Shown: positions 10,567 through 30,738, counted from the first letter of the stretch. The stretch is 64,000 nucleotides of DNA from an uncultured Spirochaetaceae bacterium (GCA_964634205.1 CAZWKE010000003.1:9268-73267), one strand, 5' to 3'. The notes: generated by a model from the sequence alone, not told the origin. A program made the numbers and translations.

Positions 10567-10579
10567 ACCTTTATTGTCC

Positions 10580-15751: not shown

Positions 15752-15788
15752 TTTTTGCTCCTTTTATTAAAGTCTTTCTAGGTCTAAA

Positions 15789-15816: not shown

Positions 15817-15855
15817 CGAATTTATTTTTTTTTTAAAATCCTGTAAAATTCTGAT

Positions 15856-16497: not shown

Positions 16498-16500
16498 GTT

Positions 16501-17529: not shown

Positions 17530-19123
17530 CCGCCGCTCCCTTTCTCCGCTTCTTTAGAAGAGTATCGATAACATAAACCCCACCCTGGATGCCGCCTCTG
17601 CAAAAGGCATCCCAGAAAAGCCTTCCCAACACAATCATATTATCGGTAACAGCGGCGGTAAGGTGTACCCCGGTATACCGGGTAACCATTTCGAGGGCCT
17701 TGCCGATGGGCACGCCGTGCCAGTCATGCGCATGCTCTCTTTCGACAGCCGGCAGGGCAAGAATCGCCATCTTCTCCGGTACGCGGCCGGGCATATCGTT
17801 CCACAGCGGCCGCATGCGGGTCAAAGCCTCCCGGTTTGTCCGGTCTTCGATTATAAAGCAGGCTACACCCGGCGTCCCGTTTCCCAAAAGAAACTCATCG
17901 GTCTCAGGCCTGTCCGCCTTAAGGCGCAGAAAAATCCTCCGTAAAGCGTCTTGTGCCGCGGCAACCGCACGCCGCCGGTTGCCCGCCTTGGAAATGATAT
18001 TTCCGCATTTTTCCACGTTATTCCTGGGAAAGCACACCTTGCTGCCCGGTGCAACCCGTAAAAACAGGTCCATTACTCCCGGCAGGTTTCCGGCCTCGTC
18101 TGTACCGTAAATCGCCCGTATCTCACCGGGTATGGATATAAAGGCCCGTTCAGCGGAAACACAATGGTAGTTTGGTTCGAGAGAAAGGGGGGGCAGGCCC
18201 ACCGCGATGCGCATGGCTGCTTCCGTTACCCGCACACCATAGGCGTAGGGAAATGTCCAACCCGACATGTATCCGCCGGAAAGCCGTGCCGCGATCTCTC
18301 CCACCACCGGCCCTTGCCCCGAGAGTTTGATATCTCCCTTTGCCGCCCCGTTTGTAATACCCAATGCTTTTATGCCCTGACAAAATACCTTTTCTACAGC
18401 GGAAACGGTTGCCCGGTTATAGGCGGTGGGCATGGTATGTCCCATCTCTACAAAATACGGTGAAAAGCGGATATCCCTGTCCGCCACCCCGCATACGGTT
18501 ATTTCCCCTTTATAGACGATGGCATCAAGACTGAATTCAGGTCCCTCCACATACTCCTCGATTATTACCTTGTGAGATCGGGAATACATAAATCCCCGGG
18601 ACACCGCCTGCCGCAACTGATCGGGTGACTCGGCTTTCACCACTCCCCGTGCGCCCATATTATCCGCCGGTTTCACCACAACCGGGAAGCGGAGCTCGCC
18701 CTCCAGTTCCGCAAGCCGGGTTTCCTCGGTGATACACCGGAAATCCGGGCTGGGGACATGATTTGCTTTAAACACCTCCCGCATTCTTACCTTGTCGGTC
18801 GCGTCCAGGGCAACCTCATAAGGAATACCCGGCAGACCAAGGCGCTCGGCGGCATACGCCACACTGGTTGAAAAATCCGTACCCGCGGTAAATACCCCGT
18901 CCAATCCGTTTTCCCGGGCATAACGTTTTAGTACCCCTGTTATCTCTTCCGTGTGCCTGAGGTCTATATGCTCAAAAAAATCCGCATACTCCCTCCCGGG
19001 CACCTTGCTGCTGCCGTCAATCAAAATAACACGCCAGCCCAGTTCTCGTGCAATGCGCAGGGAGGGCAGCTGCATAATACCGCCCCCCAAAATGGCAATC
19101 GTTTTTTCATCGGCACCGCTCAC
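17513..19123 (-). CDS. ATP-grasp domain enzyme with a ~150-aa C-terminal extension
   Basis: 536 aa. Glycine-rich N-terminus TIAILGGGIMQL. Central ATP-grasp region (PVVVKPADNMGARGV ... IEEYVEGPEFSLDAIV). Overlaps the neighbours at both ends, indicating an operon. Confidence 0.65.
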   Translation of the reverse strand: MSGADEKTIAILGGGIMQLPSLRIARELGWRVILIDGSSKVPGREYADFFEHIDLRHTEEITGVLKRYARENGLDGVFTAGTDFSTSVAYAAERLGLPGIPYEVALDATDKVRMREVFKANHVPSPDFRCITEETRLAELEGELRFPVVVKPADNMGARGVVKAESPDQLRQAVSRGFMYSRSHKVIIEEYVEGPEFSLDAIVYKGEITVCGVADRDIRFSPYFVEMGHTMPTAYNRATVSAVEKVFCQGIKALGITNGAAKGDIKLSGQGPVVGEIAARLSGGYMSGWTFPYAYGVRVTEAAMRIAVGLPPLSLEPNYHCVSAERAFISIPGEIRAIYGTDEAGNLPGVMDLFLRVAPGSKVCFPRNNVEKCGNIISKAGNRRRAVAAAQDALRRIFLRLKADRPETDEFLLGNGTPGVACFIIEDRTNREALTRMRPLWNDMPGRVPEKMAILALPAVEREHAHDWHGVPIGKALEMVTRYTGVHLTAAVTDNMIVLGRLFWDAFCRGGIQGGVYVIDTLLKKRRKGAADEKAN

Positions 19124-20934
19124 CCGGCGTCCCCCCTTTTCACCGCATATACCTCAAAAGTATCTCCGAGTCCGAACACTCGGCTTACCGCCGAAAATAG
19201 TTTCGCACACCATTTTCCCGGCAGGCCGGGGAGCGCTTTTCCCTTGAAAAATCTTTCCCCGTGATGCCCGGTAATATATATTTTTTTTACCGTGAAACCG
19301 AATCCCGCAAGCTGTTTTTTGATTTTTGCCGGGTGCCAGACGGTATAGTGATCCGGCGGACTCTTTTCCAGAAACCGACGCATGTTCTTCCGGGCCGAGA
19401 TCCCCGCCGCCGAAGGCGTGGAAAAAGCCAGGATTCCACCGGGCTTTAAAAGCAGGCTGATATGCTTCAGTATGGCAAACGGATTTTGAAAATGCTCCAG
19501 TACAAACCACATACTCACTCCATCGAAAAGGGCGCGGTTTTTCTTGACATACATATCACCGTCTTTCCCAAAATCCAACTCTTCACAGGAAATTCCGAGT
19601 GTCTCCCTGACATACCGTACGGCGGCGCCGCTGATATCCAGACCACGCGCCGCTATATTCCGGGCGGCCGCCTCCTTGAGAAACGGCCCGTAGGCGCAAC
19701 CGATATCCAATAAGCGCGGGTGTTCCTTATTTTCCCTCCATAATCTTTTAATAACACGCAGCCGCCTCCTGCCCTGTTGCCGGATACATGCAAAGTCCTG
19801 CAGATAGGTCCTGCCGTACTGTTTCCGATACTCTTTGAAAAAGTAGTCCCGGTTGTAGTACTGCTTTTTTTCCAGGAAAAAAAGTCCGTAGATCATGCCG
19901 CAGTGCGAACAAGCGAAATATGTCTTGGCCGGAAAGCGGGCCGACACCCTGTTGCCCCGATGATGACAAAGCGGGCAGACGGCTGAACCGCTGAATTCCC
20001 GGCCCTGCAGATGTGTGATTATGGCCGGCCGCGTGCGAGGGTCCCGCGGCGGGTAGCGAAGCAACAGCCGCTTAAAACGCTGTTCATTCTTTAACAGGGC
20101 CCGAAGGCGTTTCAGATTCGGTTTTCGTATGCCGATCTCGGGAAATCCCGCCTCCCGACTGAGCCTCCGGTGATACGGCGTCGGATTAAAACTAATCACC
20201 GGAACGCCAAGAGCCAGTGCCTCATAACAGGTAAGGCCGAAATGCGTAAATACAAGATCGTACTCCCGGATAAGACCTTGCAGATCACCCCTGTTTTTAT
20301 ACACGGTGACACCCTGCGGCCATTTGGTGTGTTTAAACAAAGGCCCCTGGACCACGGCTATTTCCGCGGGCCTGAACACCCCCTGTTCAAGGAGTTCCCG
20401 CAGCAGTACCGGCGATAATTGACACGGGTCTTCTCCGCCGAAACTCAACAACACCCGTTTGAAGGGATGGTGCATACTCCGCCGGGCGGCGGTGTGTAAC
20501 CGGGGTTCATAGGGGATGACAATATTGGGAGTGCTTCTCTTCGCTGTTCCGGGCAGCGTATCTATCAGGTAGGGGAACAGGTCCCGGGCGGCACCACCCT
20601 CATCCAGGCCGACAACCGGTGCTTGTTCCCTATACATTGAAAACAACGACCGCGGGGTGCGCCTGCCGTCCAGTACAATGCACTTTAATTTTGCGGCGGG
20701 CGGCAACTGTTTTACCAGGTACCGGTGTTCGGCCTGCGAAACGGGCAGTACGCTCAGGGATTTATCCGGGGGAAGCAAAAGCAGGGCCCCGGTGCCGAAC
20801 AGACGCACATGGTCCATACAACGTTTGAAATGTCCCATTCCTTCTCCCTGCCCGACCCGTGGGACAAAAAGGACCCGCCTCATTCGGCTTGCGGTACTGC
20901 TGCCTGCCAAAGCTCTGTGTGCGTTTTCAGCCAT
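19120..20934 (-). CDS. Fusion protein: PseG-like UDP-sugar hydrolase (GT28-type) + zinc ribbon + class I SAM-dependent methyltransferase
   Basis: 604 aa. N-terminal VLFVPRVGQGEGMGHFKRC matches the PseG GxGHxxR motif. Middle segment CPLCHHRGN...CSHCG is a 4-Cys ribbon. C-terminal LLDIGCAYGPFLKEAAARNIAARGLDIS is SAM-methyltransferase motif I, followed by ILAFSTP. Confidence 0.6.
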   Translation of the reverse strand: MAENAHRALAGSSTASRMRRVLFVPRVGQGEGMGHFKRCMDHVRLFGTGALLLLPPDKSLSVLPVSQAEHRYLVKQLPPAAKLKCIVLDGRRTPRSLFSMYREQAPVVGLDEGGAARDLFPYLIDTLPGTAKRSTPNIVIPYEPRLHTAARRSMHHPFKRVLLSFGGEDPCQLSPVLLRELLEQGVFRPAEIAVVQGPLFKHTKWPQGVTVYKNRGDLQGLIREYDLVFTHFGLTCYEALALGVPVISFNPTPYHRRLSREAGFPEIGIRKPNLKRLRALLKNEQRFKRLLLRYPPRDPRTRPAIITHLQGREFSGSAVCPLCHHRGNRVSARFPAKTYFACSHCGMIYGLFFLEKKQYYNRDYFFKEYRKQYGRTYLQDFACIRQQGRRRLRVIKRLWRENKEHPRLLDIGCAYGPFLKEAAARNIAARGLDISGAAVRYVRETLGISCEELDFGKDGDMYVKKNRALFDGVSMWFVLEHFQNPFAILKHISLLLKPGGILAFSTPSAAGISARKNMRRFLEKSPPDHYTVWHPAKIKKQLAGFGFTVKKIYITGHHGERFFKGKALPGLPGKWCAKLFSAVSRVFGLGDTFEVYAVKRGDAG

Positions 20935-21599
20935 TGTACAAGTTCTACAGTTTCTATGGGTTTGTGTCTATAGAGTGCCGTATACACAGCATGGATTATT
21001 TTGAAATCTGCGGCCGTATCCAACGTTACCCGCGCCCGGGGAAGCCGGCACTCCGGCGGACAAGGGGGTTCATGTACCGAGAACTCAGTTTTATGCTTCA
21101 GAATATAAGGGGTAACATGTTCATGATCATATGGATCCGTTGTTTTTTCACGGGCGGCAAACAAGGCCCGGGCCTCTACCACCTCAACCCCCGTTCCCAG
21201 TGGCGCGCCTTCAAACCTGCTGAAATCCGTACTGTGTTGCTGATGGTACTCCAGGTTGCGCCGGGTCAGCTCCGCCGAAACAAGGGGATTGTCTCCGGTT
21301 GCCCTGACAATCCGGGTTACGCCGAAATGCCCGGCCGCCCGGCAGTATCGTTCCAGGACATCAAGCGAAGGCCCGGCAAACAGGTGAAACTGCCATTTCT
21401 CCGCGTACCGTTTCAGGGCCGAGGCGCTCTCTGCATCGGTAAGCAGGGCATGCACATCAACCGCCACCCGGCCAAGGGCCTGCATAGCATGCTCGATGAC
21501 CGTGAGTCCAGCCAGTTCCAGCAGGGCTTTCCCGGGCAGGCGTTTTGATTTCAATCGTACCTGTAAAAATATACCACTTTTCATTCCGGATCTTCCCAT
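20880..21599 (-). CDS. CMP-nonulosonic acid cytidylyltransferase (NeuA/PseF/KdsB family)
   Basis: 239 aa. N-terminal GIFLQVRLKSKRLPGKALLELAGLTVIEH fits the cytidylyltransferase P-loop pattern (ARxxSxRLPxK). Confidence 0.75.
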   Translation of the reverse strand: MGRSGMKSGIFLQVRLKSKRLPGKALLELAGLTVIEHAMQALGRVAVDVHALLTDAESASALKRYAEKWQFHLFAGPSLDVLERYCRAAGHFGVTRIVRATGDNPLVSAELTRRNLEYHQQHSTDFSRFEGAPLGTGVEVVEARALFAAREKTTDPYDHEHVTPYILKHKTEFSVHEPPCPPECRLPRARVTLDTAADFKIIHAVYTALYRHKPIETVELVQWLKTHTELWQAAVPQAE

Positions 21600-22546
21600 A
21601 ACTCGATCAGACTCTTTGCGTCCCTTCTGAATCTGTATTTATTCAGGATTACCCACTTTCGTACGTTGAGGAACTCTTTCAGGGAGGTAATAATCCCGGT
21701 ATTCGATTTTATCATGTAGCGGAAAAAATGCCTGAACGGCAGCACCCCGCGGTCGCTTCTGAAATCCACACACAGGTTTTTCAGGTAAAACAGTTTATAG
21801 CTTTCATCGGGGGTGTTGTCCTCAAAGGACAACTCATAATTGTAATGAAACAGCAGGGAAGTATTACAGACAATATTTTCTCCCCATAGAAAACACCTGA
21901 AACCAAAATCGGCCTTCTGCCAGAAAGGGGTGGTGATATTCCCGTCGAATCCGCCGCACAAACGGTATTTTTCCTTATTATAAATACCGCAGTAATCGAA
22001 GGCGAACAGGCTTTTCATACCGTCGCGCAGGGGGTTCCACGGGATGATTTTAAAGGCCTTCTTTTCATACCCCGGTGTCTGGATACTGGGGATTGTATCA
22101 CCTTTTTTATTTTTCAGAATGGGAACCGTACATAGTGCGTTTTGGTGCAGGATTTTTTCCAGTACCCGTGCGGCAAGCGAGCTTTGGGATATCTTCATAT
22201 CGTTCCAGATGATAAACACCAAGCGGGACATGGCCTCTTCTATTCCGATATTCACTTTTTCCCCGGCGGTGCATTTTTCATGCAGCAAGAGAAACCGGAC
22301 ATTGGGATAGCGGCGGGAGAGGCTCTCCACATCATACGCAATATCCGGCCCCTCAATGAAGATAACCTCAAGGGACTCTTTCCGGGGCAGATCGTTGAAT
22401 ACATCATGCTGGAACAGCCTGCCCCCCCGGTTTAAGATGACGATCGAGACGGGAAAAAGGTATTTGCTTACGCGGGGTTTCGGCGCTCCGCCCATTACCG
22501 TATAGGATATTTGCGGGCGTTTAAAAATTGTAGGTGTAGTACTCAT
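21581..22546 (-). CDS. Glycosyltransferase-like protein (degenerate GT-A/GT2 fold)
   Basis: 321 aa. FPVSIVILNRGG...QHDVFNDL resembles a GT2 N-terminus. No clear DXD motif. In an operon with the sugar-nucleotide enzymes. Confidence 0.35.
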   Translation of the reverse strand: MSTTPTIFKRPQISYTVMGGAPKPRVSKYLFPVSIVILNRGGRLFQHDVFNDLPRKESLEVIFIEGPDIAYDVESLSRRYPNVRFLLLHEKCTAGEKVNIGIEEAMSRLVFIIWNDMKISQSSLAARVLEKILHQNALCTVPILKNKKGDTIPSIQTPGYEKKAFKIIPWNPLRDGMKSLFAFDYCGIYNKEKYRLCGGFDGNITTPFWQKADFGFRCFLWGENIVCNTSLLFHYNYELSFEDNTPDESYKLFYLKNLCVDFRSDRGVLPFRHFFRYMIKSNTGIITSLKEFLNVRKWVILNKYRFRRDAKSLIELWEDPE

Positions 22547-24014
22547 CGCATTCTTTACAGATATCGGGATATTCTTCCTTTAAATGCCGGAGATAAAAAT
22601 CGTTGCCCCGGTCCCAGATAACGGCCGGGTCATCCTGTAAAAGATTGCCCAGAACATGCTGCTTGTTGATGTCCTCCCTGCAGAGGCTGACACTGCCGTC
22701 CAGAAAAACCGCAATGTCCCGTTTAATATGCCAGCAGGGAAAACGTTTCAGGGGTGAAAGGTCCGTTACCCTGTACTGCGGCAGAAAACCGGAAAAATAA
22801 TCATACTTTTGAATAATAATATTTTCCGTGGTTTGTTTCCATTGCTTATAGAATTTTTCAAGCTCATCCTCATTCTGCTGCATACGCACGGCCTGGACAA
22901 ATACATTTCGACCGAAGGTCTCAAGCAGTATTTTGGTATTTTCCATGGCCTCGGCAAAACCCTGCCCACGCAAGGTGTTGTAACACGCTTCACTGATCGC
23001 ATCCAGCGAAACAATCCAGCGGCAGCGATCACGTACATTGCCGCTTAATGACTGCAGGGCCTTCGCGTCCCATCCCAGGGCGGATGTCTCAATTACCAGT
23101 TTGAAGGACGGTATCTCGCATACTTTTTCGATTAGCTCATATGCCTTGCTGTGCAGCGAATGCTCGCCCCATAACGAAAAGCCGATGACCGCGTCCTCAC
23201 AGAATCCCCGTATTTTCTCCAGTATTTTTTCAAAATCCTCCGGGGCCATTTCACCCTTTTTCCCCAGCATATCGGGTCTGAATTTGGGGTACGGACAGTA
23301 TGAGCATTGCTGCGCGCAGCCCTCCACGGTCTGAACCAGAAAATAAACGGGCAGCGTGCGTAATATTTCCTTGTGTTCCTGTAAGGCCTTCAGTATTTCC
23401 TGTTCCGAAAACGCCCCGTACTCCGCCAGCCGTTTTAATAAAAAGAAATTCCTTCTGCAGTCCGCGGACAGGCCGGCACGCAGCAGACGCAGGTCAACGG
23501 GAGATATCTCGGTCTCCAGGTCAAATGAGTTGATGTCCTTCTTTATCAGCTCAAACAGGCTGTTCCGGTCCGGTACCGTGATTTCATCTTCACCCAGCAG
23601 GTTCAGCAAGGGCGTTAGAATATAGGGTTTCAGGATTTCCGGGGTAAGTCCGTAGGGATACCCGTCGGCAAAGGTGTAATCCGCAAAATAGGTCTTATGA
23701 TTCGCGTACATGCGTTTTGTGATCTCACTGTTCAAAAACATACAGTCCGCGTAGAAATAAAAAATATTATCAAACCCCTCGGCCTTTTCTTTTATTCGGC
23801 GCAGCATTTCTCCCGTGGTCCAATGCTCATCCTGCAGGGACTCATACTGTTTTAATTCCCTGCAGGGTGAAGAAAGCAGAACCAGGGTCTTTTCGACCTC
23901 CGGGAGGCTCCCGATGTATTCTTTCACAAAATCAAGGGGGGTCTTCCCGCTCCGCACGTTTTCAAGGGCATAGGGAGAGAGATTAATTCCGTTTACTATG
24001 GCTATATTTTTCAT
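22521..24014 (-). CDS. Radical SAM / SPASM-domain enzyme with a ~220-aa N-terminal extra domain
   Basis: 497 aa. 4Fe-4S cluster motif CAQQCSYC (CxxxCxxC) at about residue 225. C-terminal Cys-rich auxiliary-cluster region CWHIKRD...SLCRED...CKECDEY. The N-terminal 220 aa precede the radical SAM core. Confidence 0.7.
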   Translation of the reverse strand: MKNIAIVNGINLSPYALENVRSGKTPLDFVKEYIGSLPEVEKTLVLLSSPCRELKQYESLQDEHWTTGEMLRRIKEKAEGFDNIFYFYADCMFLNSEITKRMYANHKTYFADYTFADGYPYGLTPEILKPYILTPLLNLLGEDEITVPDRNSLFELIKKDINSFDLETEISPVDLRLLRAGLSADCRRNFFLLKRLAEYGAFSEQEILKALQEHKEILRTLPVYFLVQTVEGCAQQCSYCPYPKFRPDMLGKKGEMAPEDFEKILEKIRGFCEDAVIGFSLWGEHSLHSKAYELIEKVCEIPSFKLVIETSALGWDAKALQSLSGNVRDRCRWIVSLDAISEACYNTLRGQGFAEAMENTKILLETFGRNVFVQAVRMQQNEDELEKFYKQWKQTTENIIIQKYDYFSGFLPQYRVTDLSPLKRFPCWHIKRDIAVFLDGSVSLCREDINKQHVLGNLLQDDPAVIWDRGNDFYLRHLKEEYPDICKECDEYYTYNF

Positions 24015-24073: not shown

Positions 24074-27000
24074 TTATTTCTCCGGAATGAGTTCCAGAAT
24101 AAGTTCAACCTCACCGCGCGAGAGTTTGGTGGCCCTGGCAATCTCCTGAACCGACCAGCCCTGATGGGCGAGTTTCACTACCGTCTGCCGTTTATCACTT
24201 GAAGGGGCCCCACGGTCCTTTTTGGTCTGGGCCACCTCTTCCTTGATCAGACTTTCCAAAAGTCGCAGCTGTTCCTGGGCCTGGGTATTTACCTGTTCCA
24301 GCCTTGTCTCGGCCCGGGCCAGCCATTCCCTGGCGATATTCAGTTTGTCCATCCGTGCCTCAAGCTCCAGAATCAGGTGATCAATACCTTCCATTTTATC
24401 GACCACGGCGTCGGTCTTTTCCTTGTTGGCGCTGATAAGCTCAATCTCCGCTTTCAGTTCCTTTATCAGGGAGGGTATCCCCTTCATTTCCTTCTGCATT
24501 TCACCTAATGATTTGTCAAGACCGGTGAGCTTTTGAAAATTCTTATCCACTCCCTGGGTCGTGCTGTCCAGTACCTTCTTTTTCTGTTCCAGGCGGGCAA
24601 AACGGGTATCTACCTCTTTTTCCAGATCTTCGAGTGTTCTCATTTTCAGCTCCAGCTCCTGGACCGCATCGTAATTTGTAGTAATATTCACAATCTTGGC
24701 GTCTATTTCATGTGAGATGGAAATAAGGCGTTTAAAATCGGTTTCCATGCTGTTGATACGCTTTTTCTCGGTCACAAATTCCCTGACCTTGGCGGACATA
24801 TCATCCACGAGCTTTCTAGTGGTGACAAACTCTTTGTTGATGGCGTCCACGTCCTTTTTATACGCCGATATCTTGACGAGCTCCTTTTTCATGGAGTCGA
24901 TATCACTCTCAAGGTTGATTTTAAGTGTATCCGCCCGTTCAAATATTTTTGTCTGGGCCACAAAATTCTTCTGCTGTTTTTCTATCTCGCTTAATCCCTG
25001 CCCCAGACCGGAGGCCTTTTCCACCAGTCTATCAAGCTCATCCTTTAGGTGCGCCCTTTCCTTGGTGGTCGCGTCTATCAGATCGTTCTTCTGTTCCGCA
25101 AAATTCTTTTCCAGCGTCGTAAAGGTGGTGGAAAACAGGGTTTCCAACTCGGTTTGACGCTCCACAAAACTATGCTGCAGTGAGTTCAAAGCCGAATTAA
25201 ACGTTTCTTCCAATTCCTGCCGGCGTTCATCAACATCCTGTTTCAGGGTATTAATTCTTGCCGACGAATCCTCTGTCAGTCCGGAAAGCTTTTCAGATAT
25301 ATCCTGCTCCGAATCCTGGTATTTCTGCAGTATTTCCTCGTGCCACTGGCGGGCTTCCTCCGTAGTGCCGGAGAAGTAAGCGGAAAGCTTTTCCCGGGAA
25401 TTCTTGAAATTCTCCTCAAGCTGCTTAATATTTTGCTGTACGTCGATTTTCCCGTCTTCCAGCGCCTTGAACATCGAGGCAATATACCCGTTAATCTCAG
25501 CCTGGGTGCTGTCCAGTTTGGTATCGATAGCCTCGCGCAGCTCCGCTTCCTTTTCCTGCATGGCCCGGCCGGCCGCGCTTTCGATGCTGCGGATATTTTC
25601 CTGTTTGATGGTTTCGATCTTGGTGGAGACCTCTTCCTGGAACTCTTCTATTACCTTTCGCAGTGCGTCACTGCGCTCCCTGAAATCATTAAAGAAATCA
25701 TCCTCAAGTACGCTTAATTTCCCTGATACATTTTCGTACGCCCTGGTTTTCAAGGTATTTATTTCAGCTTCGATATTCTCAATTTCTTCCCGGTAATTCT
25801 CCAGCTCCGCGGCCGCCCTGGATTTCTCCGCACTGCGTTCATCCGCCAAAAGCTTGTTAAAATCGCTGAAATCATGCCTGATCTTCTCCGTGATCCCATC
25901 CATATAATCACGCAGGGATTTTTCCATGGATTCAATATCCACATTACAGTCTTCAAGTTTTTTAAATTTAAAGGAAATCTCCTCTTCATAGGTTCCCAGC
26001 CGCTCTTCTACGCCTTTTGTATACTCATCCATTTCCGCGGCCGCCTGCTCCCGGGCAAGCCTGGTCTGATGAAAATCCTCTTCGTATTTTTGTATGCTCC
26101 GAGCGATTTCGGTCTTCCTGTGCTCGAAGGCCTGTACCATGGATTCTATATTCTCGTTTATTTCAGTCCGCGTCACGTCTATTTTGGAGTCGATAAACTC
26201 ACGCAGCTCATGTTCCTTTTCTTCCAAAGTATCCGCCGCCATACTTTCGATCGTCGTATTATTCTCCTGTTTAATCTGTTCAATCCGCGTCAACACCTCT
26301 TCCTGGAACTTATCCAGGCTGGTTTGGACGGCCAGGCTTCGTTCCTTAAAATCGGCAAAGAAATCATCTTCCAGGATTTGCAGCTTTTCGGATACATTTT
26401 CATATGCCGTGGTTTTCAGCGCCTTTACCTCGGAATCGATACCCTCTATCTCGTTTCGTATCCGGGAAAGCTCCCGGTCGGCCTTGGCGGTTTCCGCCGA
26501 GCGTTCTTCTTCCAGACGGTTTCCAAAGTCTGAAAAATCACTTTTGATCTTATCGCTGACACCCGCCATATACGCGCGCAGTGATTTTTCAAGCTCTTCA
26601 ATATCTACATTGCAATCTTTTAGTCTCTGGAACTTATAGGCAAGCTCTTCATCATAGGTTTCCAGCCGTTGTTCCACGTTTTTGGTAAAATCTTCCATTT
26701 CCAGCGATACACTTTCCTGGGTATCCCTGGCCCGGTTTAAGAAATCGGTCATACCGGCGCTGACCTCATTTTCCAGATCACGCAGCTTGGCGGAAATCTG
26801 TCGTTTCAGGTCCTTCATCTGTTTGTCCAGTTCCACGTGCCAAACGTTTGCGTCGGAACGCAGTACCCCGAACATCTCCCCGATCTCTTTCTTCTTGGTA
26901 TCAAGGTCGGTATTCACCCGCTTGAAGTATTCCTCGATTTCATAAGCCTGCTCCCTGGCCTTTTTATCGATAGACTCTTGCAGGTTATGGAACACCTCAT

Positions 27001-27940
27001 CATTAAAGGTCTCTCCCCGTACCGCCGCCTTTTCCAGCTGCTCATGGAACATCTTTTCGATTCGGGTGTACTGCTCCTTAAAATCCTCGATCTTTGCGGC
27101 ATACTCCGCATCAAGAGCCTGTGAAGTATCGTGAACCGTCTCCAGCATGGTTCGCAGCTCCAGGGTGATCTTTTCCTGTTCCTCCTGCGCACCGCTGATA
27201 ACCGCGCCGGTTTCGGAAGAAAGCTCGCTGATCCCCTGTTTTCTACGCTTGATGATCTCTTCATCCAGGCCGGACAGGAGTTCCCGATAGGCCTTTTCAG
27301 CGGTTTTCACCACCTCTGATCTGCGTTCCTCAAGCTTTTTCACGTACCCCGCCACACCGGTGACATTCTGTTCGATTATATGCAGATTTTGTTCAAGTTC
27401 CTCAATGCTGTCGCGATGTGTATCAAGCAGTTTTTTACGGATCTTATCCAGTTCAAGCCTGTTTTTCTCCGTAGATTTAGTCAGCGCGTTCTCCAGGGAC
27501 GTTTCCAGTTTGGTGATACGGTGCGAGACATCTTTTACCTGTGAACCTACCCGGTCGATAAAAACCGATTCATCCTTGATACGCGAAAGATTCTCATCAA
27601 CCCTGCCGGACATGGCGACAAGCTCATTTAACGTACCCGCGTAATTGTCTACGGTGGCTTTCATATTTTTGAAATCACCCTCTTTGGCCTTTAGGGCTTC
27701 TTCAAAAGTGAGAATCCGCTTTAAAACCTCTCTGCTCTTTTTCAGATTAAGATCCAGATCGACCGCGATATCATTAATCTCAACGGTTTTTTCCTTGATA
27801 AACACGGATATTTCTTCTTTCAGTTTGTCCGAAAAGCGTTTTACCTTTTCCAGACTTCTGTTGCGCTTATCAAGCGTTCTAAAGAGGATTACAATAATAA
27901 TAACTACCAAAAATGTAGGCAGGCTGAAAGTGTAGTCCAT
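24074..27940 (-). CDS. Giant membrane-anchored coiled-coil protein with a C-terminal helix-turn-helix
   Basis: 1288 aa. N-terminal transmembrane helix FSLPTFLVVIIIVILF. About 1150 aa of charged heptad-like sequence (E/K/L-rich). C-terminus LAHQGWSVQEIARATKLSRGEVELILEL is HTH-like. Very strong RBS GGGAGGGGAG. Confidence 0.55.
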   Translation of the reverse strand: MDYTFSLPTFLVVIIIVILFRTLDKRNRSLEKVKRFSDKLKEEISVFIKEKTVEINDIAVDLDLNLKKSREVLKRILTFEEALKAKEGDFKNMKATVDNYAGTLNELVAMSGRVDENLSRIKDESVFIDRVGSQVKDVSHRITKLETSLENALTKSTEKNRLELDKIRKKLLDTHRDSIEELEQNLHIIEQNVTGVAGYVKKLEERRSEVVKTAEKAYRELLSGLDEEIIKRRKQGISELSSETGAVISGAQEEQEKITLELRTMLETVHDTSQALDAEYAAKIEDFKEQYTRIEKMFHEQLEKAAVRGETFNDEVFHNLQESIDKKAREQAYEIEEYFKRVNTDLDTKKKEIGEMFGVLRSDANVWHVELDKQMKDLKRQISAKLRDLENEVSAGMTDFLNRARDTQESVSLEMEDFTKNVEQRLETYDEELAYKFQRLKDCNVDIEELEKSLRAYMAGVSDKIKSDFSDFGNRLEEERSAETAKADRELSRIRNEIEGIDSEVKALKTTAYENVSEKLQILEDDFFADFKERSLAVQTSLDKFQEEVLTRIEQIKQENNTTIESMAADTLEEKEHELREFIDSKIDVTRTEINENIESMVQAFEHRKTEIARSIQKYEEDFHQTRLAREQAAAEMDEYTKGVEERLGTYEEEISFKFKKLEDCNVDIESMEKSLRDYMDGITEKIRHDFSDFNKLLADERSAEKSRAAAELENYREEIENIEAEINTLKTRAYENVSGKLSVLEDDFFNDFRERSDALRKVIEEFQEEVSTKIETIKQENIRSIESAAGRAMQEKEAELREAIDTKLDSTQAEINGYIASMFKALEDGKIDVQQNIKQLEENFKNSREKLSAYFSGTTEEARQWHEEILQKYQDSEQDISEKLSGLTEDSSARINTLKQDVDERRQELEETFNSALNSLQHSFVERQTELETLFSTTFTTLEKNFAEQKNDLIDATTKERAHLKDELDRLVEKASGLGQGLSEIEKQQKNFVAQTKIFERADTLKINLESDIDSMKKELVKISAYKKDVDAINKEFVTTRKLVDDMSAKVREFVTEKKRINSMETDFKRLISISHEIDAKIVNITTNYDAVQELELKMRTLEDLEKEVDTRFARLEQKKKVLDSTTQGVDKNFQKLTGLDKSLGEMQKEMKGIPSLIKELKAEIELISANKEKTDAVVDKMEGIDHLILELEARMDKLNIAREWLARAETRLEQVNTQAQEQLRLLESLIKEEVAQTKKDRGAPSSDKRQTVVKLAHQGWSVQEIARATKLSRGEVELILELIPEK
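25370..26701 (-). repeat. Diverged in-frame tandem duplication (2 x ~666 bp, 2 x ~222 aa) inside the giant gene
   Basis: Protein residues 414-635 and 636-857 align colinearly (EMEDFTKNVEQRLETYDEELAYKFQRLKDCNVDIEELEKSLRAYM versus EMDEYTKGVEERLGTYEEEISFKFKKLEDCNVDIESMEKSLRDYM, roughly 50% identity). DNA identity is only partial, so the duplication is ancient. Confidence 0.8.
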
Positions 27941-27984
27941 TGCTCCCCTCCCATGGGATATTTGTCTTTTATATTATCTCACCC

Positions 27985-28047
27985 TATACGTATTGTCAAT
28001 TATTTTTTTAACATTTTTCTATTATACGTATTGTAACCGACAATAGG
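27985..28047. promoter_or_regulatory. Operator-like cluster with the TATTGT/ACAATA half-site
   Basis: TATACGTATTGTCAAT at 27985..28000. TATACGTATTGT-AACCG-ACAATA at 28023..28045, a perfect TATTGT-N5-ACAATA palindrome carrying the same TATACG prefix. The inverse half-site TTGACAATA recurs at 28094..28102. Confidence 0.5.
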
Positions 28048-28060: not shown

Positions 28061-28090
28061 ATTTTACAATATTTTACAATTTTTTACACC
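28061..28090 (+). promoter_or_regulatory. Three tandem 10-bp direct repeats abutting the -35 box: OmpR/PhoB-type response-regulator binding-site architecture
   Basis: ATTTTACAAT, ATTTTACAAT, TTTTTACACC at a 10-bp period. They end 3 nt before TTGACA at 28094. Confidence 0.5.
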
Positions 28091-28093
28091 AGG

Positions 28094-28127
28094 TTGACAA
28101 TAGTGGGCGAAAGCAGGGTATTATATA
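28094..28127 (+). promoter_or_regulatory. Sigma-70-like promoter for the HK/RR operon
   Basis: TTGACA (28094..28099), spacer 19 (or 18), then TATTAT (28119..28124). Confidence 0.4.
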
Positions 28128-28142: not shown

Positions 28143-30068
28143 TTGAAGGCCCGTAAAAAAAGAATACATAGCATGCACCTCATTATCATTCTGGCCGCGG
28201 TCATCATTATTCCCGGAATAATACTTGGGATATTGGCCTTGCGCGCGATCGAAAGAGAAGAAGCATATATCGAAAAAAATTTTACTCTGACCCTGACGTC
28301 CGAAGTAAACAGCGCGGTCACCCTGGTGGATAATGAAATGAAAGCCGTCCGGGATGAGTTGTCCGCCGTGATCCGTTTCCCGGAAGAACGGAATGCCGCC
28401 CTTGCGCTGCAAAAGATGCGGCAGGATTCCTCTCTGATCGGCCTCCCCTTCCTGCTTTCATCGCATCGCGTGGTAGTCTATCCCCCCCGCACGAAGCCCC
28501 CTTCGCAGGAAGAGTCTCTGCTTGAAAAACAGAACCGGGAGCTGTTTGAAGACACGGTTTCCATTCCGGTCTATAAGAACATCGTCAAGGAGTATAAAGA
28601 CACCATTTTAAATGAAGACGTACAGTCCACAGCCCCGAATCAGGCACCGGCCGAAGCGGTCCCGCAGAAAGGGGACAATGCGCCCAGGCAAAGCGAATCG
28701 GCCAAAGCCCTGCAGGAGGAGATTGAGACACAACAGGCGATAAACCGCTTTAACAATTCCGAACCCCTGCGTCAGAAGATTTATAAACAGGCCAGGGAAC
28801 AGGGGCAGGAGGTACTGGTAAGAAATATTATTCTTCCGGCGGACAATTCCGACGCACTGAACAAACAGTGGTCATACTTCATCCTGGAATCCCATACCTT
28901 CAGCCAGATTATCGGGAAGGCCTCCCGGGGAATTATCCCCCGTTTTATCGAAGACAAGCTGTACCTGTTATACTGGAAGAAAAATACGCGGGACTCGGTT
29001 GTAGGGTGTGTGATCGATATCGATGCTTTAAAGCAGCGCCTGCTGCAGGTCATGCCCCGGGTATTTTCACAGACCCGCATCCTGGTGATCCTTGATGAAA
29101 AAGCCAAACCCCTGGTTGTTCCCGAGGGAGAAGAACAGCGGCAGTGGTTTACCCCTTTTGCCGCGCAGGAAATTTCAGAGCTCTTGCCCCGCTGGGAAAT
29201 TGCCGCGTATCTTACCAATCCGAACGTCATCAGGGACAAAGCCCAGTCGACCGCGCTGGTACTATGGATTTTGATCGCGTTTCTGCTTGTGGCCCTGTTT
29301 CTGGGCGGGGTGTTTTTGACCGGGCTGCTGATGGGCCAAATGAAGCTGGCCCAACAAAAAACCAATTTTGTGGCCAATGTTTCCCATGAACTGAAAACAC
29401 CGCTGACCTCCCTGCGTTTGTTTGCCGAGTTATTACGTGACAACAGGCAGCCTGACGCGGCAAAACGTAAGCAGTACCTGGAAACCATGGTTTCCGAAAC
29501 CGAGCGCCTTACCCGGCTTATCAATAATGTACTGGATTTTACGCGGATGGGAAAAGGGAAAAGAAACTATCACCCGCGGCCGTGCGATATCGGCGGATTA
29601 TGCGAAGATATAATCCGGGCTCAGCGGGCACGCTTGGAACATAAAGGGTTTACCGTAAAAATCACCTGCCCTGCGGGGCCGGTCACGGCCCGTATTGATG
29701 AAGAAGCCCTAAAACAGGTTATGATCAACCTGTTGTCAAACGCGGAAAAGTATTCCGGGAACAGAAAAAGTATTGAGGTAACAGTATCCCGGGACACAAA
29801 CAATGTCATCATTAATATTCTGGACAGGGGACCGGGCATTCCCCCGAGACTTTCGGAAAAGATCTTCAAAGAGTTTTACCGGGTGGACGATTCCCTGACG
29901 GCCGCGGTGAGCGGCAGCGGCCTGGGACTGTCCATCTCCAGAAAAATATTGCGTGACCATGGTGGTGACATCCGCTACCTCCCGCGCAGCGGGGGAGGAA
30001 GCCGTTTCCGGATTTTTATACCAAAGGGAGAAAACGAGCATGCGAAAACAAAAGATTCTCATTATTGA
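28143..30068 (+). CDS. Sensor histidine kinase (two transmembrane helices with a large periplasmic domain)
   Basis: 641 aa from the TTG at 28143 (with a GAGGGA Shine-Dalgarno); alternative ATG at 28173. Transmembrane helices at about residues 12-35 and 370-395. HisKA H-box VSHELKTPLTSL. HATPase motifs DRGPGIP and GSGLGLSI. Confidence 0.85.
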   Translation: MKARKKRIHSMHLIIILAAVIIIPGIILGILALRAIEREEAYIEKNFTLTLTSEVNSAVTLVDNEMKAVRDELSAVIRFPEERNAALALQKMRQDSSLIGLPFLLSSHRVVVYPPRTKPPSQEESLLEKQNRELFEDTVSIPVYKNIVKEYKDTILNEDVQSTAPNQAPAEAVPQKGDNAPRQSESAKALQEEIETQQAINRFNNSEPLRQKIYKQAREQGQEVLVRNIILPADNSDALNKQWSYFILESHTFSQIIGKASRGIIPRFIEDKLYLLYWKKNTRDSVVGCVIDIDALKQRLLQVMPRVFSQTRILVILDEKAKPLVVPEGEEQRQWFTPFAAQEISELLPRWEIAAYLTNPNVIRDKAQSTALVLWILIAFLLVALFLGGVFLTGLLMGQMKLAQQKTNFVANVSHELKTPLTSLRLFAELLRDNRQPDAAKRKQYLETMVSETERLTRLINNVLDFTRMGKGKRNYHPRPCDIGGLCEDIIRAQRARLEHKGFTVKITCPAGPVTARIDEEALKQVMINLLSNAEKYSGNRKSIEVTVSRDTNNVIINILDRGPGIPPRLSEKIFKEFYRVDDSLTAAVSGSGLGLSISRKILRDHGGDIRYLPRSGGGSRFRIFIPKGENEHAKTKDSHY

Positions 30069-30738
30069 AGACGATCGTGCCATTATCACGGGCATACGCG
30101 ACCTTTTGCAAAGTGAGCACTACGCCGTTTCCATTGCTTACGACGGCAGGACGGCCCTGGAACGCTACCGGCAGGACAGACCTGACCTGGTGCTGTTGGA
30201 TATCATGATCCCCGAAAAAAGCGGGTATGAGGTATGTAAAGAAATCCGCAAAACGGACCGTGCCACACCGATTGTTATGCTGACAGCCAAATCGCAGGAG
30301 GTGGATAAGGTAGTGGGCTTTGACCTGGGCGCGGACGATTACGTCGTCAAACCATTCGGGGTGCAGGAACTGCTTGCCCGCATCCGCACCTGTCTGCGCC
30401 GCAGCAGTCCGCAGGAAAAGCATCCCGACAATAGTGAAATCAGTTTCGGCAACGTCCGGATTAATCCCAAAACGCTTCAGGGCAGAAAGGGCAAAGAGGA
30501 GTTTCCCCTGGTACAGCGCGAGGTTGACCTGCTGCGCTATTTTCTGGATCACGAAGGCGAGGTGCTGGACCGGTTTGCCCTTTTGGACAAGATTTGGGGA
30601 TTGAGTTACGGCGGTACCACCCGCACCCTGGACCAGCACATCTCCAAACTGCGCCGGAAGATTGAGGATGATCCGGCCCGGCCCAGACATATCATCACTG
30701 TCCATACCGTGGGGTACAAATTCAGCAGAGGCGCATAG
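30040..30738 (+). CDS. OmpR-family response regulator (REC + winged-helix)
   Basis: Starts at ATG 30040 (MRKQKILIIEDD) after RBS AAAGGGAG. The track ORF extends upstream without support. DLVLLDIMIP carries the phospho-Asp. C-terminal VHTVGYKF is an OmpR-type wing. Overlaps the HK 3' end by 29 bp. Confidence 0.85.
   Translation: MRKQKILIIEDDRAIITGIRDLLQSEHYAVSIAYDGRTALERYRQDRPDLVLLDIMIPEKSGYEVCKEIRKTDRATPIVMLTAKSQEVDKVVGFDLGADDYVVKPFGVQELLARIRTCLRRSSPQEKHPDNSEISFGNVRINPKTLQGRKGKEEFPLVQREVDLLRYFLDHEGEVLDRFALLDKIWGLSYGGTTRTLDQHISKLRRKIEDDPARPRHIITVHTVGYKFSRGA

What the first reader, a model, noticed from the sequence alone, without database searches (positions are those of the whole stretch)
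24074..27940. 1288-aa membrane-anchored coiled-coil protein with a C-terminal HTH and an ancient internal 222-aa tandem duplication, heading the glycosylation operon
The protein has a single N-terminal transmembrane helix, more than 1100 aa of charged helical sequence, and a C-terminal HTH-like segment (VQEIARATKLSRGEVELILEL). A transmembrane anchor combined with a DNA-binding-type tail is an unusual architecture. It could be a membrane-tethered regulator, or a structural scaffold that borrowed an HTH-like motif. The gene carries the strongest RBS in the window (GGGAGGGGAG). It lies 59 bp upstream of the radical SAM gene on the same strand, so it may be co-transcribed. The duplication (residues 414-635 versus 636-857) is diverged at the DNA level, which argues for an evolved modular rod and against a recent repeat expansion.
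Basis: partly seen in the sequence, partly recalled or inferred. Interest (0 to 1): 0.65.

Follow-up and report, generated by a model that had tools for sequence, protein, structure and literature searches.

The report
Giant membrane-anchored rod, FipA-like tail
This is a 1,288-residue spirochaete-specific protein of the catalogued but unstudied 'SpiroCoCo' family: a membrane-anchored helical rod that would span about 180 nm if fully extended, ending in a small three-helix domain that resembles the FlhF-binding domain of the flagellar pole factor FipA more than any DNA-binding regulator, and it is only accidentally next to the glycosylation genes.

Summary
The ORF is real (24074-27940, minus strand, 1288 aa). 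It has one N-terminal TM helix, an almost proline-free helical rod, a flexible GAPS linker and a C-terminal three-helix HTH-fold domain. The 222-aa tandem duplication is real (53% aa identity).

- The RBS is not the strongest in the window.
- The duplication is lineage-specific: 3 of 96 full-length homologs have it.
- The gene does not conservedly head the glycosylation operon. In the two closest relatives a convergent gene separates them. In about 40-50 other spirochaete genomes the gene sits in a co-directional array exbB-exbD-tonB-like-HAD-SpiroCoCo-grpE-dnaK-dnaJ.

The protein is a clear member of NCBIfam's SpiroCoCo family (N and C domains far above cut-off). The family occurs in at least 451 species-representative genomes and has no literature.

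The tail matches Pfam DUF6115 (17/17 family members) and DUF2802 (15/17) better than any DNA-binding HTH family. It keeps the four FipA positions chosen for mutagenesis (G, L, E, L at identical spacing), and its third helix is acidic.

Best reading: a membrane-anchored scaffold with a FipA-type protein-docking tail, possibly for FlhF. That partner is inferred only. The FipA paper states that spirochaetes lack FipA homologues, so the link would be new. The synteny is not flagellar.

The parts
24074..27940 (-). Complete SpiroCoCo-family gene (1288 codons plus stop at 24074-24076)
   Evidence: ORF list and translation. NCBIfam SpiroCoCo_N 206.8 bits (cut-off 75) and SpiroCoCo_C 316.5 bits (cut-off 125).
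27943..27952 (-). Shine-Dalgarno-like GGGAGGGGAG. A good RBS, but not the strongest in the window.
   Evidence: Sequence. Duplex energy -10.7 kcal/mol against at least 8 stronger sites.
27971..27999 (-). Sigma-70-like promoter TTGACA-17-TAATAT (10/12), the gene's probable own promoter. It overlaps one copy of a 12-nt repeat.
   Evidence: Consensus scan and repeats. Function not shown.
28071..28100 (-). Second sigma-70-like site TTGTCA-18-TAAAAT (10/12), further upstream
   Evidence: This is a consensus match only.
27881..27928 (-). Single N-terminal transmembrane helix (residues ~5-20, FSLPTFLVVIIIVILF). Predicted N-out/C-in.
   Evidence: Hydropathy and flanking charges. A hydrophobic N-terminus is visible in the homolog sequences fetched.
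27272..27916 (-). SpiroCoCo_N / LA_3659-type domain (residues 9-223), including the juxtamembrane motif LDKRNRSLEKVKRF with invariant D24 and N27
   Evidence: Alignment A1; A1 numbering is true residue minus 1.
26036..26701 (-). Central conserved module, copy A (residues 414-635), containing AYENVSEKLQILEDDFF
   Evidence: Predicted as one continuous helix.
25370..26035 (-). Central conserved module, copy B (residues 636-857), a lineage-specific tandem duplicate of copy A
   Evidence: 53% aa and 62% nt identity with no gaps. Two copies occur in only 3 of 96 family members.
24095..25027 (-). SpiroCoCo_C domain (residues 972-1282). Heptad-type coiled coil (hydrophobic period 3.46), then linker and tail.
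   Evidence: Periodicity.
24200..24214 (-). Flexible linker (residues 1243-1247; G1244-A1245-P1246 nearly invariant)
   Evidence: Low pLDDT in the model. Conservation.
24089..24199 (-). C-terminal three-helix DUF6115/DUF2802-type (FipA-like) domain, residues 1248-1284. G1261, L1273, E1277 and L1280 correspond to the mutated FipA positions.
   Evidence: AlphaFold2 model, Foldseek, Pfam, FipA primer-derived and database sequences, hhalign register.

Best explanation
The gene encodes a member of the spirochaete-specific SpiroCoCo family. A single N-terminal helix anchors it in the cytoplasmic membrane with about 5 residues outside and the rest inside. About 1,220 residues of almost uninterrupted alpha-helix form a rod. 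The first ~940 residues have an 11-residue (hendecad, apolipoprotein-like) hydrophobic period and the last ~270 are a canonical heptad coiled coil. Fully extended, the rod would be about 180 nm long. A short flexible Gly-Ala-Pro linker then presents a 40-residue three-helix domain.

That domain has an HTH fold but is of the DUF6115/DUF2802 type. DUF2802 is the domain with which the small gammaproteobacterial membrane protein FipA binds the flagellar placement GTPase FlhF. I propose that the protein works as a scaled-up FipA: a membrane-tethered scaffold or spacer whose tail docks a cytoplasmic partner at the membrane. FlhF is the most likely partner, because all mutated FipA positions are conserved. 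The rod, whose length changes by internal duplications such as the one seen here, would set the reach or spacing.

Shown here: family membership, TM helix, helical rod, fold of the tail, similarity to DUF6115/DUF2802, the duplication, and the synteny.
Inferred: membrane topology, dimeric rod, protein-docking rather than DNA-binding function.
Speculative: FlhF as the partner.
For: - Family membership: NCBIfam SpiroCoCo_N and SpiroCoCo_C far above cut-off. RefSeq uses that name for a homolog. At least 451 species-representative genomes encode relatives, and all 80 listed records are titled as Spirochaetota lineages.
- TM helix and positive-inside flanks. FipA has the same N-out topology, TM at residues 6-28, a coil, then DUF2802 (PMC11620751).
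- Helical rod. Hydrophobic periodicity 3.64 and 3.46, with 0 of 300 shuffles reaching the observed power for either.
- Tail: 17/17 family C-termini hit DUF6115 (best E 4.3e-10) and 15/17 hit DUF2802 (best 8.9e-9), over nearly the whole profiles. The generic HTH_23 family hits only 9/17 (best 1.3e-5). The window protein passes the DUF6115 gathering score.
- An ungapped alignment with genuine V. parahaemolyticus FipA sequence places G110, the Leu at G+12 (P. putida L116), E126 and L129 on G1261, L1273, E1277 and L1280. G1261 is invariant and E1277 and L1280 are at least 90% conserved in the family alignment; L1273 is the majority residue only. hhalign independently chooses the same register.
- Helix 3 is acidic with no basic residue, which is unsuitable for the DNA major groove.
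- Rod length varies from 921 to 2718 aa with conserved ends.
- Spirochaetes use FlhF/FlhG to place periplasmic flagella (bioRxiv 10.64898/2026.04.08.717139).
Against: - No flagellar gene is a conserved neighbour. The conserved array is Der-x-TPR-x-ExbB-ExbD-TonB_C-HAD-SpiroCoCo-GrpE-DnaK-DnaJ, whereas fipA always follows the flhF-flhG operon.
- The window protein's DUF2802 score (25-29 bits) is below Pfam's gathering score of 33.5.
- hhalign against a narrow Vibrio FipA profile is weak (P = 0.017, probability 2.6%).
- The conserved G and L residues sit at a helix turn and in the hydrophobic core of an HTH fold. They may be kept for folding and not for FlhF contact.
- DUF6115 scores higher than DUF2802, and its function is unknown (no paper found).
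- No experiment on any family member was found.
Confidence: 0.4

Rival explanations
1. The architecture is the same (membrane-anchored rod with a protein-docking tail) but the role is not flagellar. The protein would be an envelope, cell-pole, division or cell-shape scaffold in the manner of EzrA or TipN. It would work with the Tol/Ton-like ExbB-ExbD-TonB_C-TPR system encoded upstream, and the tail would bind a partner other than FlhF.
For: Strict co-directional synteny with ExbB/TolQ, ExbD/TolR, a TonB_C-domain protein, a 969-aa TPR protein and a HAD hydrolase only ~62 bp upstream, in about 30-40 of 77 loci. No flagellar neighbours. From established knowledge: Tol-type systems act at division sites and new poles, and in Caulobacter the membrane-anchored coiled-coil landmark TipN depends on Tol-Pal for positioning.
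Against: Synteny with housekeeping genes (Der, GrpE-DnaK-DnaJ, SpoU) may only reflect a stable chromosomal neighbourhood. The array is broken in this window without loss of the gene. There is no sequence similarity to EzrA, TipN or DivIVA. The only functionally characterised relative of the tail domain is FipA.
Confidence: 0.3
2. It is a membrane-surface protein. The hendecad, apolipoprotein-like two-thirds of the rod would lie as amphipathic helices on the inner leaflet and stabilise or sense the membrane under stress. It would be functionally tied to the adjacent DnaK chaperone operon.
For: Hydrophobic period 3.64-3.68 for residues 30-971, not the heptad value of 3.5. Pfam Apolipoprotein hit of 68.9 bits over six stretches. 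The module profile hits ApoA-IV at E 2.4e-7 and ApoA-I at 3e-4 in the PDB. GrpE starts a median 173 bp downstream in about 40 loci.
Against: The Apolipoprotein score is below its gathering score of 90. Hendecad periodicity also fits straight coiled coils. In T. denticola the gene upstream of grpE (TDE0626, orthology unverified) was not co-transcribed with grpE-dnaK-dnaJ (PMC2965109). This reading does not explain the invariant docking-type tail.
Confidence: 0.12
3. This is the first reader's preferred option: a membrane-tethered transcription regulator whose C-terminal HTH binds DNA, for example controlling the downstream glycosylation or spiro-SPASM genes or the dnaK operon.
For: A true tri-helical HTH fold, closest in the PDB to the Pax, resolvase, Tc3 and NarL DNA-binding domains. 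Weak Pfam HTH_23, HTH_7 and HTH_28 hits. In many bacteria the position upstream of grpE is occupied by the repressor hrcA (established knowledge).
Against: All DNA-binding HTH families score below their gathering thresholds and below DUF6115/DUF2802. Helix 3 (GEVELILEL) has E1279 and E1283 invariant and E1277 at least 90% conserved, and no basic or polar base-reading residues. The domain's net charge is about +1. A ~180-nm rod between membrane and HTH is unlike known membrane-tethered regulators. Downstream genes differ between lineages.
Confidence: 0.08

Closest known systems
SpiroCoCo family coiled-coil protein (NCBIfam NF047514 SpiroCoCo_N, NF047515 SpiroCoCo_C; related NF047516 LA_3659 family)
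   Same: Both domain models match end-to-end far above cut-off. Same TM, rod and tail layout as all homologs. RefSeq names homologs this way.
   Different: The window protein carries a tandem duplicate of the central module, which only 3 of 96 members have. It has also lost the family's usual HAD-upstream and grpE-downstream context. The family itself has no published function.
FipA (DUF2802 protein, FlhF interaction partner of Vibrio, Pseudomonas and Shewanella; PMC11620751)
   Same: A short extracytoplasmic N-terminus, a single TM helix, a cytoplasmic coil, and a C-terminal three-helix domain. The G / L(+12) / E(+16) / L(+19) residues are at identical spacing. Pfam DUF2802 hits occur in 15/17 family tails.
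   Different: FipA is about 160 aa, whereas this protein is 1288 aa with two extra conserved domains. The gene is not next to flhF/flhG. The DUF2802 score is below Pfam's threshold for this protein. The FipA authors report no FipA homologues in spirochaetes. The FlhF interaction is untested.
Pfam DUF6115 (PF19610)
   Same: The window protein passes the gathering score (29.9 bits for the whole protein, 35.9 for the tail, against 27), matching profile positions 34-133 of 134. All 17 family tails hit it.
   Different: In this protein the DUF6115-type domain is the C-terminal tail of a 1288-aa protein. No function is known and no paper mentions DUF6115.
Membrane-anchored coiled-coil landmarks and scaffolds (Caulobacter TipN, Firmicute EzrA), cited from established knowledge
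   Same: N-terminal membrane anchor followed by a long cytoplasmic helical rod used to position other proteins.
   Different: No detectable sequence similarity. Neither has a C-terminal DUF2802/DUF6115 domain. This is a resemblance of architecture only.
Exchangeable apolipoproteins (ApoA-I, ApoA-IV, ApoE)
   Same: 11/22-residue amphipathic helical periodicity. The module profile hits ApoA-IV at E 2.4e-7.
   Different: Below Pfam's gathering score. This is a bacterial, membrane-anchored, cytoplasmic protein. The similarity is most likely convergent in composition and periodicity.
SMC / Rad50 ('chromosome segregation ATPase', the automatic JGI label for homologs)
   Same: Long coiled-coil segments give partial matches. 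JGI annotates homologs this way.
   Different: 50 bits against a cut-off of 567. The matches cover the coiled-coil arms only, with no ATPase head or hinge. The label is a coiled-coil artefact.

Membership tests
SpiroCoCo family (NCBIfam) | N-terminal domain model NF047514 at or above its cut-off of 75 bits | tested here: met
   206.8 bits, E 3e-61, residues 9-223 on profile positions 3-214 of 221
SpiroCoCo family (NCBIfam) | C-terminal domain model NF047515 at or above its cut-off of 125 bits | tested here: met
   316.5 bits, E 1.7e-94, residues 972-1282 on profile positions 2-313 of 313
SpiroCoCo family (NCBIfam) | Spirochaete origin | tested here: met
   All 80 best loci of at least 451 relatives carry Spirochaetota-lineage record titles. 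The closest relatives are 'Spirochaetales bacterium' MAGs.
FipA family (as defined in PMC11620751) | Single N-terminal TM helix with a short external N-terminus and a cytoplasmic remainder | tested here: met
   Hydropathy and positive-inside flanks. This is a prediction only; the topology was not tested experimentally.
FipA family (as defined in PMC11620751) | A single cytoplasmic DUF2802 domain recognised by Pfam | tested here: inconclusive
   25.0 bits (whole protein) and 29.3 bits (tail) against a gathering score of 33.5. However, 15/17 family tails hit at E <= 0.01, best 8.9e-9, and precomputed annotations list PF10975. hhalign against Vibrio FipA gives P = 0.017.
FipA family (as defined in PMC11620751) | Conserved Gly, Glu and Leu (VpFipA G110, E126, L129; also Pp L116) in the domain | tested here: met
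   G1261, L1273, E1277 and L1280 at identical spacing. G1261 is invariant and E1277 and L1280 are at least 90% conserved in the family.
FipA family (as defined in PMC11620751) | Gene immediately downstream of the flhA-flhF-flhG-fliA-che operon | tested here: not met
   Neither in the window nor in 77 homologous loci
FipA family (as defined in PMC11620751) | Small protein (about 160 aa) with a short coil | tested here: not met
   1288 aa. Family range is 921-2718 aa.
FipA family (as defined in PMC11620751) | Direct binding to FlhF and a requirement for correct flagellar placement | not testable with these tools
   Needs two-hybrid or pull-down assays and mutant cryo-ET
Pfam DUF6115 (PF19610) | Profile match at or above the gathering score of 27 | tested here: met
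   29.9 bits (whole protein) and 35.9 bits (tail), profile positions 34-133 of 134
DNA-binding HTH transcription regulators | Tri-helical HTH fold | tested here: met
   AlphaFold2 helices at 1248-1259, 1264-1271 and 1275-1284. Foldseek hits to Pax5/6, resolvases, Tc3 and NarL at 0.7-2 A, with no E <= 0.001.
DNA-binding HTH transcription regulators | Match to a DNA-binding HTH Pfam family at its gathering score | tested here: not met
   HTH_23 18.8-22.6 bits (< 24.6), HTH_7 15.6-19.0 (< 23.8), HTH_28 13.9-17.4 (< 25)
DNA-binding HTH transcription regulators | Basic or polar recognition helix able to read the major groove | tested here: not met
   Helix 3 is GEVELILEL. E1279 and E1283 are invariant, E1277 is at least 90% conserved, and there is no basic residue. 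This is an inference from sequence; binding was not measured.
SMC / Rad50 | Full-length match with ATPase head domains and hinge | tested here: not met
   Best hit is 50 bits against a cut-off of 567, covering coiled-coil regions only. No SMC or Rad50 domain model is among the Pfam hits.
Exchangeable apolipoproteins (PF01442) | Pfam match at or above the gathering score of 90 | tested here: not met
   68.9 bits over six stretches. The shared 11-residue periodicity is shown.

The most novel reading that the evidence does not exclude
SpiroCoCo is the 'missing' spirochaetal counterpart of FipA, which the FipA paper reports as absent from spirochaetes. It would be a membrane-anchored molecular ruler whose FipA-type tail captures FlhF, and whose rod length, tuned by internal duplications from 921 to 2718 residues, sets where or how far apart the subpolar periplasmic flagellar motors assemble.
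Probability: 0.15. Interest if true: 0.8.

Novelty: new variant of a known kind. Interest (0 to 1): 0.5.

Why it matters
How spirochaetes place their periplasmic flagellar motors in ordered subpolar rows is unresolved. FlhF and FlhG are involved, but no membrane determinant comparable to FipA or HubP is known, and the FipA study states that spirochaetes have no FipA homologue. A phylum-wide protein with the same TM, coil and DUF2802-type layout and conserved functional residues is a concrete candidate that can be tested genetically in Borrelia, Treponema denticola or Leptospira.

Independently of that, the work corrects three things. The automatic 'chromosome segregation ATPase' label on homologs is a coiled-coil artefact. 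The HTH-like tail is unlikely to bind DNA. The link to the glycosylation genes is a local rearrangement. If the flagellar link is wrong, what remains is an uncharacterised but already catalogued spirochaete scaffold protein of moderate interest.

Tried and rejected
- Literature searches for 'SpiroCoCo', 'LA_3659' and 'DUF6115' found nothing.
- I guessed model-organism orthologs from the grpE synteny. BB0520 appears in no paper. TP0214 is a 7-kDa miniprotein and therefore not the ortholog. TDE0626 is listed only as 'hypothetical' and was not co-transcribed with grpE, and I could not verify orthology.
- The look-up of encoding contigs on the window protein: not on record.
- The C-terminal profile search against 1.84 billion representatives returned 940 hits, but the 150 shown are all SpiroCoCo proteins, so it did not expose small DUF2802/DUF6115 relatives.
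- The word-indexed search with the tail profile listed only contig-end fragments of the same family.
- tblastn of the tail against plasmids gave only noise.
- The afdb50 fold library was unavailable.
- PDB sequence searches gave no significant hit for the whole protein (best E 0.0014) or for the tail profile (best E 0.0076).
- Self-BLAST did not report the internal repeat, so I measured the duplication by direct ungapped comparison.
- Ungapped identities could not decide whether the two copies in P0001 and P0002 are orthologous pairs or arose independently (53-59% in all combinations).
- SMC/Rad50 membership was rejected.
- Numbering slip: the first row of alignment A1 lacked Met1, so A1 positions are true residue numbers minus 1. 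All residue numbers in this report are corrected.

Full report
**1. The observation**

The window holds a 3,867-nt ORF at 24074..27940 on the minus strand, ATG-initiated, encoding 1288 aa. GGGAGGGGAG lies 2 nt upstream of the ATG, with its GGAGG core at a 6-nt spacing.

Hydropathy shows exactly one membrane-spanning candidate, at residues ~5-20 (19-mer Kyte-Doolittle maximum 2.42; nothing above 0.64 elsewhere). The N-flank carries D2 and no basic residue. The C-flank carries R21, K25, R26, R28, K32, K34 and R35. By the positive-inside rule the bulk of the protein is cytoplasmic.

The rest is 38% charged and has four prolines in total.

The claimed repeat is real. Residues 414-635 and 636-857 align without a gap at 118/222 identities. 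DNA identity is 62%, and third codon positions are only 45% identical.

The downstream gene (22521..24014, same strand) starts 59 bp after the stop codon. There is no minus-strand terminator-like site in the gap, and two sigma-70-like promoter matches lie upstream of the gene.

Three details fail:
- The RBS pairs with the anti-SD at -10.7 kcal/mol, while at least eight other genes in the window reach -10.8 to -13.0.
- The duplication is not ancient for the family (section 4).
- The operon context is not conserved (section 5).

**2. What family it is**

NCBIfam assigns the protein unambiguously to the 'SpiroCoCo family coiled-coil protein'. SpiroCoCo_N scores 206.8 bits (cut-off 75) over residues 9-223. 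SpiroCoCo_C scores 316.5 bits (cut-off 125) over residues 972-1282, covering the whole 313-position profile.

SMC and Rad50 models give only about 50 bits against cut-offs of 567-1000, on coiled-coil arms. The 'chromosome segregation ATPase' label that JGI puts on homologs is therefore a coiled-coil artefact.

RefSeq uses the SpiroCoCo name (WP_460057368.1, Spirochaeta dissipatitropha). A scan of one genome per species found at least 451 genomes encoding relatives, and the 80 best are all titled as Spirochaetota lineages. A profile of the last 125 residues finds 940 cluster representatives (455 at E <= 1e-10) among 1.84 billion proteins. I found no paper that mentions the family.

**3. Anatomy**

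An alignment of 21 homologs (its numbering is true residue minus 1) shows three conserved islands separated by fast-evolving helix:
- (a) the TM helix plus a juxtamembrane motif LDKxNRSLEKVKRF (D24 and N27 invariant) and the rest of the N domain;
- (b) a central module with E-x-RL-x-EYE...Y-x-F-x-KLE...DI-x-x-LE...AY-x-NVSEKLKVFEDEFF-x-DL-x-x-RS;
- (c) the C domain, ending ...AREWLARTETRLEE...GAP...KLAxQGWxVxEIARATKLSRGEVELILEL.

AlphaFold2 with family alignments predicts the central module as a single 220-residue helix (pLDDT 89.8). It predicts the last 125 residues as a long helix (1165-1242), a low-confidence linker (1243-1247, containing G1244-A1245-P1246), and three short helices at 1248-1259, 1264-1271 and 1275-1284 (pLDDT 86.8 overall).

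Fourier analysis of hydrophobic residues gives a period of 3.64 for residues 30-971 and 3.46 for residues 972-1240. Neither value was reached by any of 300 shuffles. The N-terminal two-thirds is therefore hendecad-like. This explains the sub-threshold Pfam Apolipoprotein hit and the ApoA-IV and ApoA-I hits of the module profile in the PDB (E 2.4e-7 and 3e-4). The last ~270 rod residues are a canonical heptad coiled coil. If fully extended, ~1,220 helical residues would span roughly 180 nm (inference).

**4. The duplication**

The duplicated unit is exactly the family's conserved central module. Among 96 full-length members in hand, 71 have one copy of the NVS-x-x-L-x-x-FEDEF-type motif and 22 have none that match the strict pattern. 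Only three have two copies: the window protein, P0002 (70% identical) and P0003, where the second copy is offset by 149 residues and not 222. The next relatives (P0004-6, about 70% identical, 986 aa) have one copy.

The duplication is therefore a lineage-specific event that has since diverged to 53% identity. The module evolves fast: orthologous-position copies in P0001 and P0002 are only 56% identical. Family lengths run from 921 to 2197 aa in this set and reach 2718 aa in Hollandina sp.. Rod length is thus evolutionarily plastic, and this duplication adds about 33 nm (inference).

**5. Genomic context**

The downstream genes are:
- a spiro-SPASM radical SAM protein (TIGR04321, 543 bits);
- an unknown 321-aa protein;
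- a CMP-sugar-type cytidylyltransferase;
- a PseG-like/methyltransferase fusion;
- an ATP-grasp enzyme and an amidase;
- further on, FlaA.

This cluster follows SpiroCoCo only in the two closest relatives (L004, L006). In both of those a 477-aa gene on the opposite strand lies between them, which rules out co-transcription there. That gene is absent from the window.

Clustering all flanking ORFs of 77 loci reveals the real conserved context, a co-directional array: Der GTPase, a 439-aa unknown, a 969-aa TPR protein, a 547-aa unknown, ExbB/TolQ, ExbD/TolR, a TonB_C-domain protein, HAD hydrolase (median gap 62 bp), SpiroCoCo, GrpE (median gap 173 bp), DnaK, DnaJ, a 148-aa unknown, and a SpoU methylase.

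The window retains Der, the 430-aa protein and HAD at 46-43.6 kb. It has lost the Exb/TonB/TPR genes and the grpE-dnaK linkage. So 'heading the glycosylation operon' is a local rearrangement. No flagellar gene is a conserved neighbour.

**6. The tail: HTH fold, but which function?**

Foldseek places the last ~40 residues on tri-helical HTH domains (Pax5/6, gamma-delta and Tn3 resolvase, Tc3, NarL, DosR) at 0.7-2 A. The E-values of 0.04 and above are typical for so short a domain.

At the sequence level the best families are not DNA binders. DUF6115 hits 17 of 17 family tails (best E 4.3e-10; the window protein passes the gathering score). DUF2802 hits 15 of 17 (best 8.9e-9; the window protein scores 25-29 bits, below the threshold of 33.5). 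HTH_23 hits 9 of 17 (best 1.3e-5) and never reaches its threshold in the window protein.

DUF2802 is the domain by which FipA binds FlhF and recruits it to the pole. FipA is a ~160-aa protein of Vibrio, Pseudomonas and Shewanella with an external N-terminus (residues 1-5), a TM helix (6-28), a short coil and a C-terminal DUF2802. The substitutions G110A and L129A abolish FlhF binding (PMC11620751).

From the paper's mutagenesis primers I reconstructed VpFipA residues 103-137 and then retrieved genuine Vibrio FipA sequences. Ungapped:

FipA ATKMVQLGADINELIEECELPKAEAELMLSLQKKL
Window 1254-1288 VVKLAHQGWSVQEIARATKLSRGEVELILELIPEK

This gives 9 identities over the 34 positions scored. G110, the Leu at +12 (mutated as L116 in P. 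putida), E126 and L129 fall on G1261, L1273, E1277 and L1280. In the family alignment G1261 is invariant and E1277 and L1280 are at least 90% conserved. hhalign picks the same register but is weak against this narrow Vibrio profile (33 columns, P = 0.017, probability 2.6%).

Helix 3 (GEVELILEL) has E1279 and E1283 invariant, E1277 at least 90% conserved, and no basic residue. The 42-residue tail has 7 K/R against 6 D/E. That is a poor DNA-reading surface and a plausible surface for a basic protein partner (inference).

**7. Mechanism and rivals**

I favour a membrane-anchored scaffold with a FipA-type docking tail (confidence 0.4), with FlhF as the most likely partner. Spirochaetes use FlhF and FlhG to organise polar periplasmic flagella.

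The main weaknesses are the non-flagellar synteny, the sub-threshold DUF2802 score, and the possibility that the conserved G and L residues are simply fold-determining.

The rivals are:
- The same architecture serving a non-flagellar envelope, pole or division role with the adjacent Tol/Ton-like system (0.3).
- An apolipoprotein-like membrane-surface or stress role tied to the dnaK operon (0.12).
- A DNA-binding membrane-tethered regulator, the least likely (0.08).

**8. Novelty**

The protein is an ordinary member of a family that is catalogued but functionally blank. What is new is the recognition that this family has FipA's layout and FipA's domain type with the tested residues conserved, whereas the FipA study explicitly reports FipA homologues as absent from spirochaetes. 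It is not a FipA family member by that paper's definition: size, gene position and the Pfam threshold all fail. I therefore class it as a new variant of a known kind, of moderate interest (0.5), with a higher-value but unproven reading as a flagellar-placement ruler.

Noticed in passing
window 14726-24014 (minus strand) and 2249-3922 (+): A co-directional cluster looks like a nonulosonic-acid or flagellin-glycosylation locus. It contains a spiro-SPASM radical SAM protein (TIGR04321, 543 bits; its N-terminus resembles a cytidylyltransferase), an unknown 321-aa protein, a CTP_transf_3 cytidylyltransferase, a 604-aa PseG-like/GT plus methyltransferase fusion, an ATP-grasp ligase, an Ami-type amidase, a GerMN protein, and the flagellar sheath protein FlaA. 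A Maf-like MptE/DUF115 protein lies at 2249-3922. The role of the spirochaete-specific spiro-SPASM protein in such a cluster is unexplained.
   Followed up: partly
window 27985-27996 and 28023-28034; also 28061-28080 and 27991-27999/28094-28102: The 202-bp divergent intergenic region between SpiroCoCo and a histidine-kinase gene holds two exact copies of ACAATACGTATA (containing the palindrome ATACGTAT) 38 nt apart; one copy sits in the spacer of the TTGACA-17-TAATAT promoter. It also holds a tandem ATTTTACAAT x2 and a 9-nt inverted repeat. Allowing one mismatch, the 12-mer occurs 3 times in the window against 0.15 expected, and it is absent from all 83 related loci. It could be an operator for a local regulator.
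   Followed up: partly
window 8060-8071 (minus strand): A third, one-mismatch copy of the same 12-mer (ACAATTCGTATA) lies 44-55 nt upstream of the hybrid response-regulator/PAS/histidine-kinase gene at 5758-8016. It may be a second target of the same unknown regulator.
   Followed up: no
window 43666-47446 (minus strand): Der/EngA GTPase, a 430-aa unknown and a HAD hydrolase are orthologs (40-51% identity) of the genes that precede SpiroCoCo in other spirochaetes. Here HAD is 15.7 kb from SpiroCoCo, and the TPR, ExbB, ExbD, TonB_C and GrpE-DnaK genes are missing from the window. This shows a lineage-specific break-up of the ancestral array.
   Followed up: yes
loci L001, L007-L083 (for example L018:1651-6161 and L015:1270-2304): A conserved spirochaetal array of a 969-aa TPR protein, a 547-aa protein with no Pfam hit, ExbB/TolQ, ExbD/TolR and a 344-aa TonB_C-domain protein sits upstream of HAD-SpiroCoCo. 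It may be a Tol- or Ton-like envelope system. A 2026 paper reports FlhF binding TonB2 in Campylobacter (PMC13640089, title and abstract only), a coincidence I did not pursue.
   Followed up: no
window 9235-12853 (minus strand): A chemotaxis pair: CheA (757 aa) followed by an unusual CheW-CheR fusion protein (443 aa).
   Followed up: no
window 28143-30738 (+): A histidine kinase (641 aa, TTG start) and an OmpR-type response regulator are transcribed divergently from SpiroCoCo. The longest response-regulator ORF (GTG at 29953) overlaps the kinase by 116 nt, so its true start is probably further downstream. This pair is also divergent from SpiroCoCo in the closest relatives L004 and L006.
   Followed up: partly
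proteins P0124 (2718 aa, Hollandina sp. SP2), P0061 and P0311 (1945-2084 aa, Treponema sp.): Among the ten family members whose sources I looked up, the longest named ones come from Hollandina sp. SP2 and Treponema sp. MAGs. From memory, Hollandina is a large termite-gut spirochaete, which hints that rod length may scale with cell size. This is anecdotal and was not tested.
   Followed up: no
protein P0271 (163 aa, partial; Candidatus Delongbacteria MAG): A C-terminal fragment very similar to the SpiroCoCo tail (E 7e-24) is annotated from a non-spirochaete candidate phylum. Either the family extends beyond Spirochaetota or the bin is contaminated.
   Followed up: no
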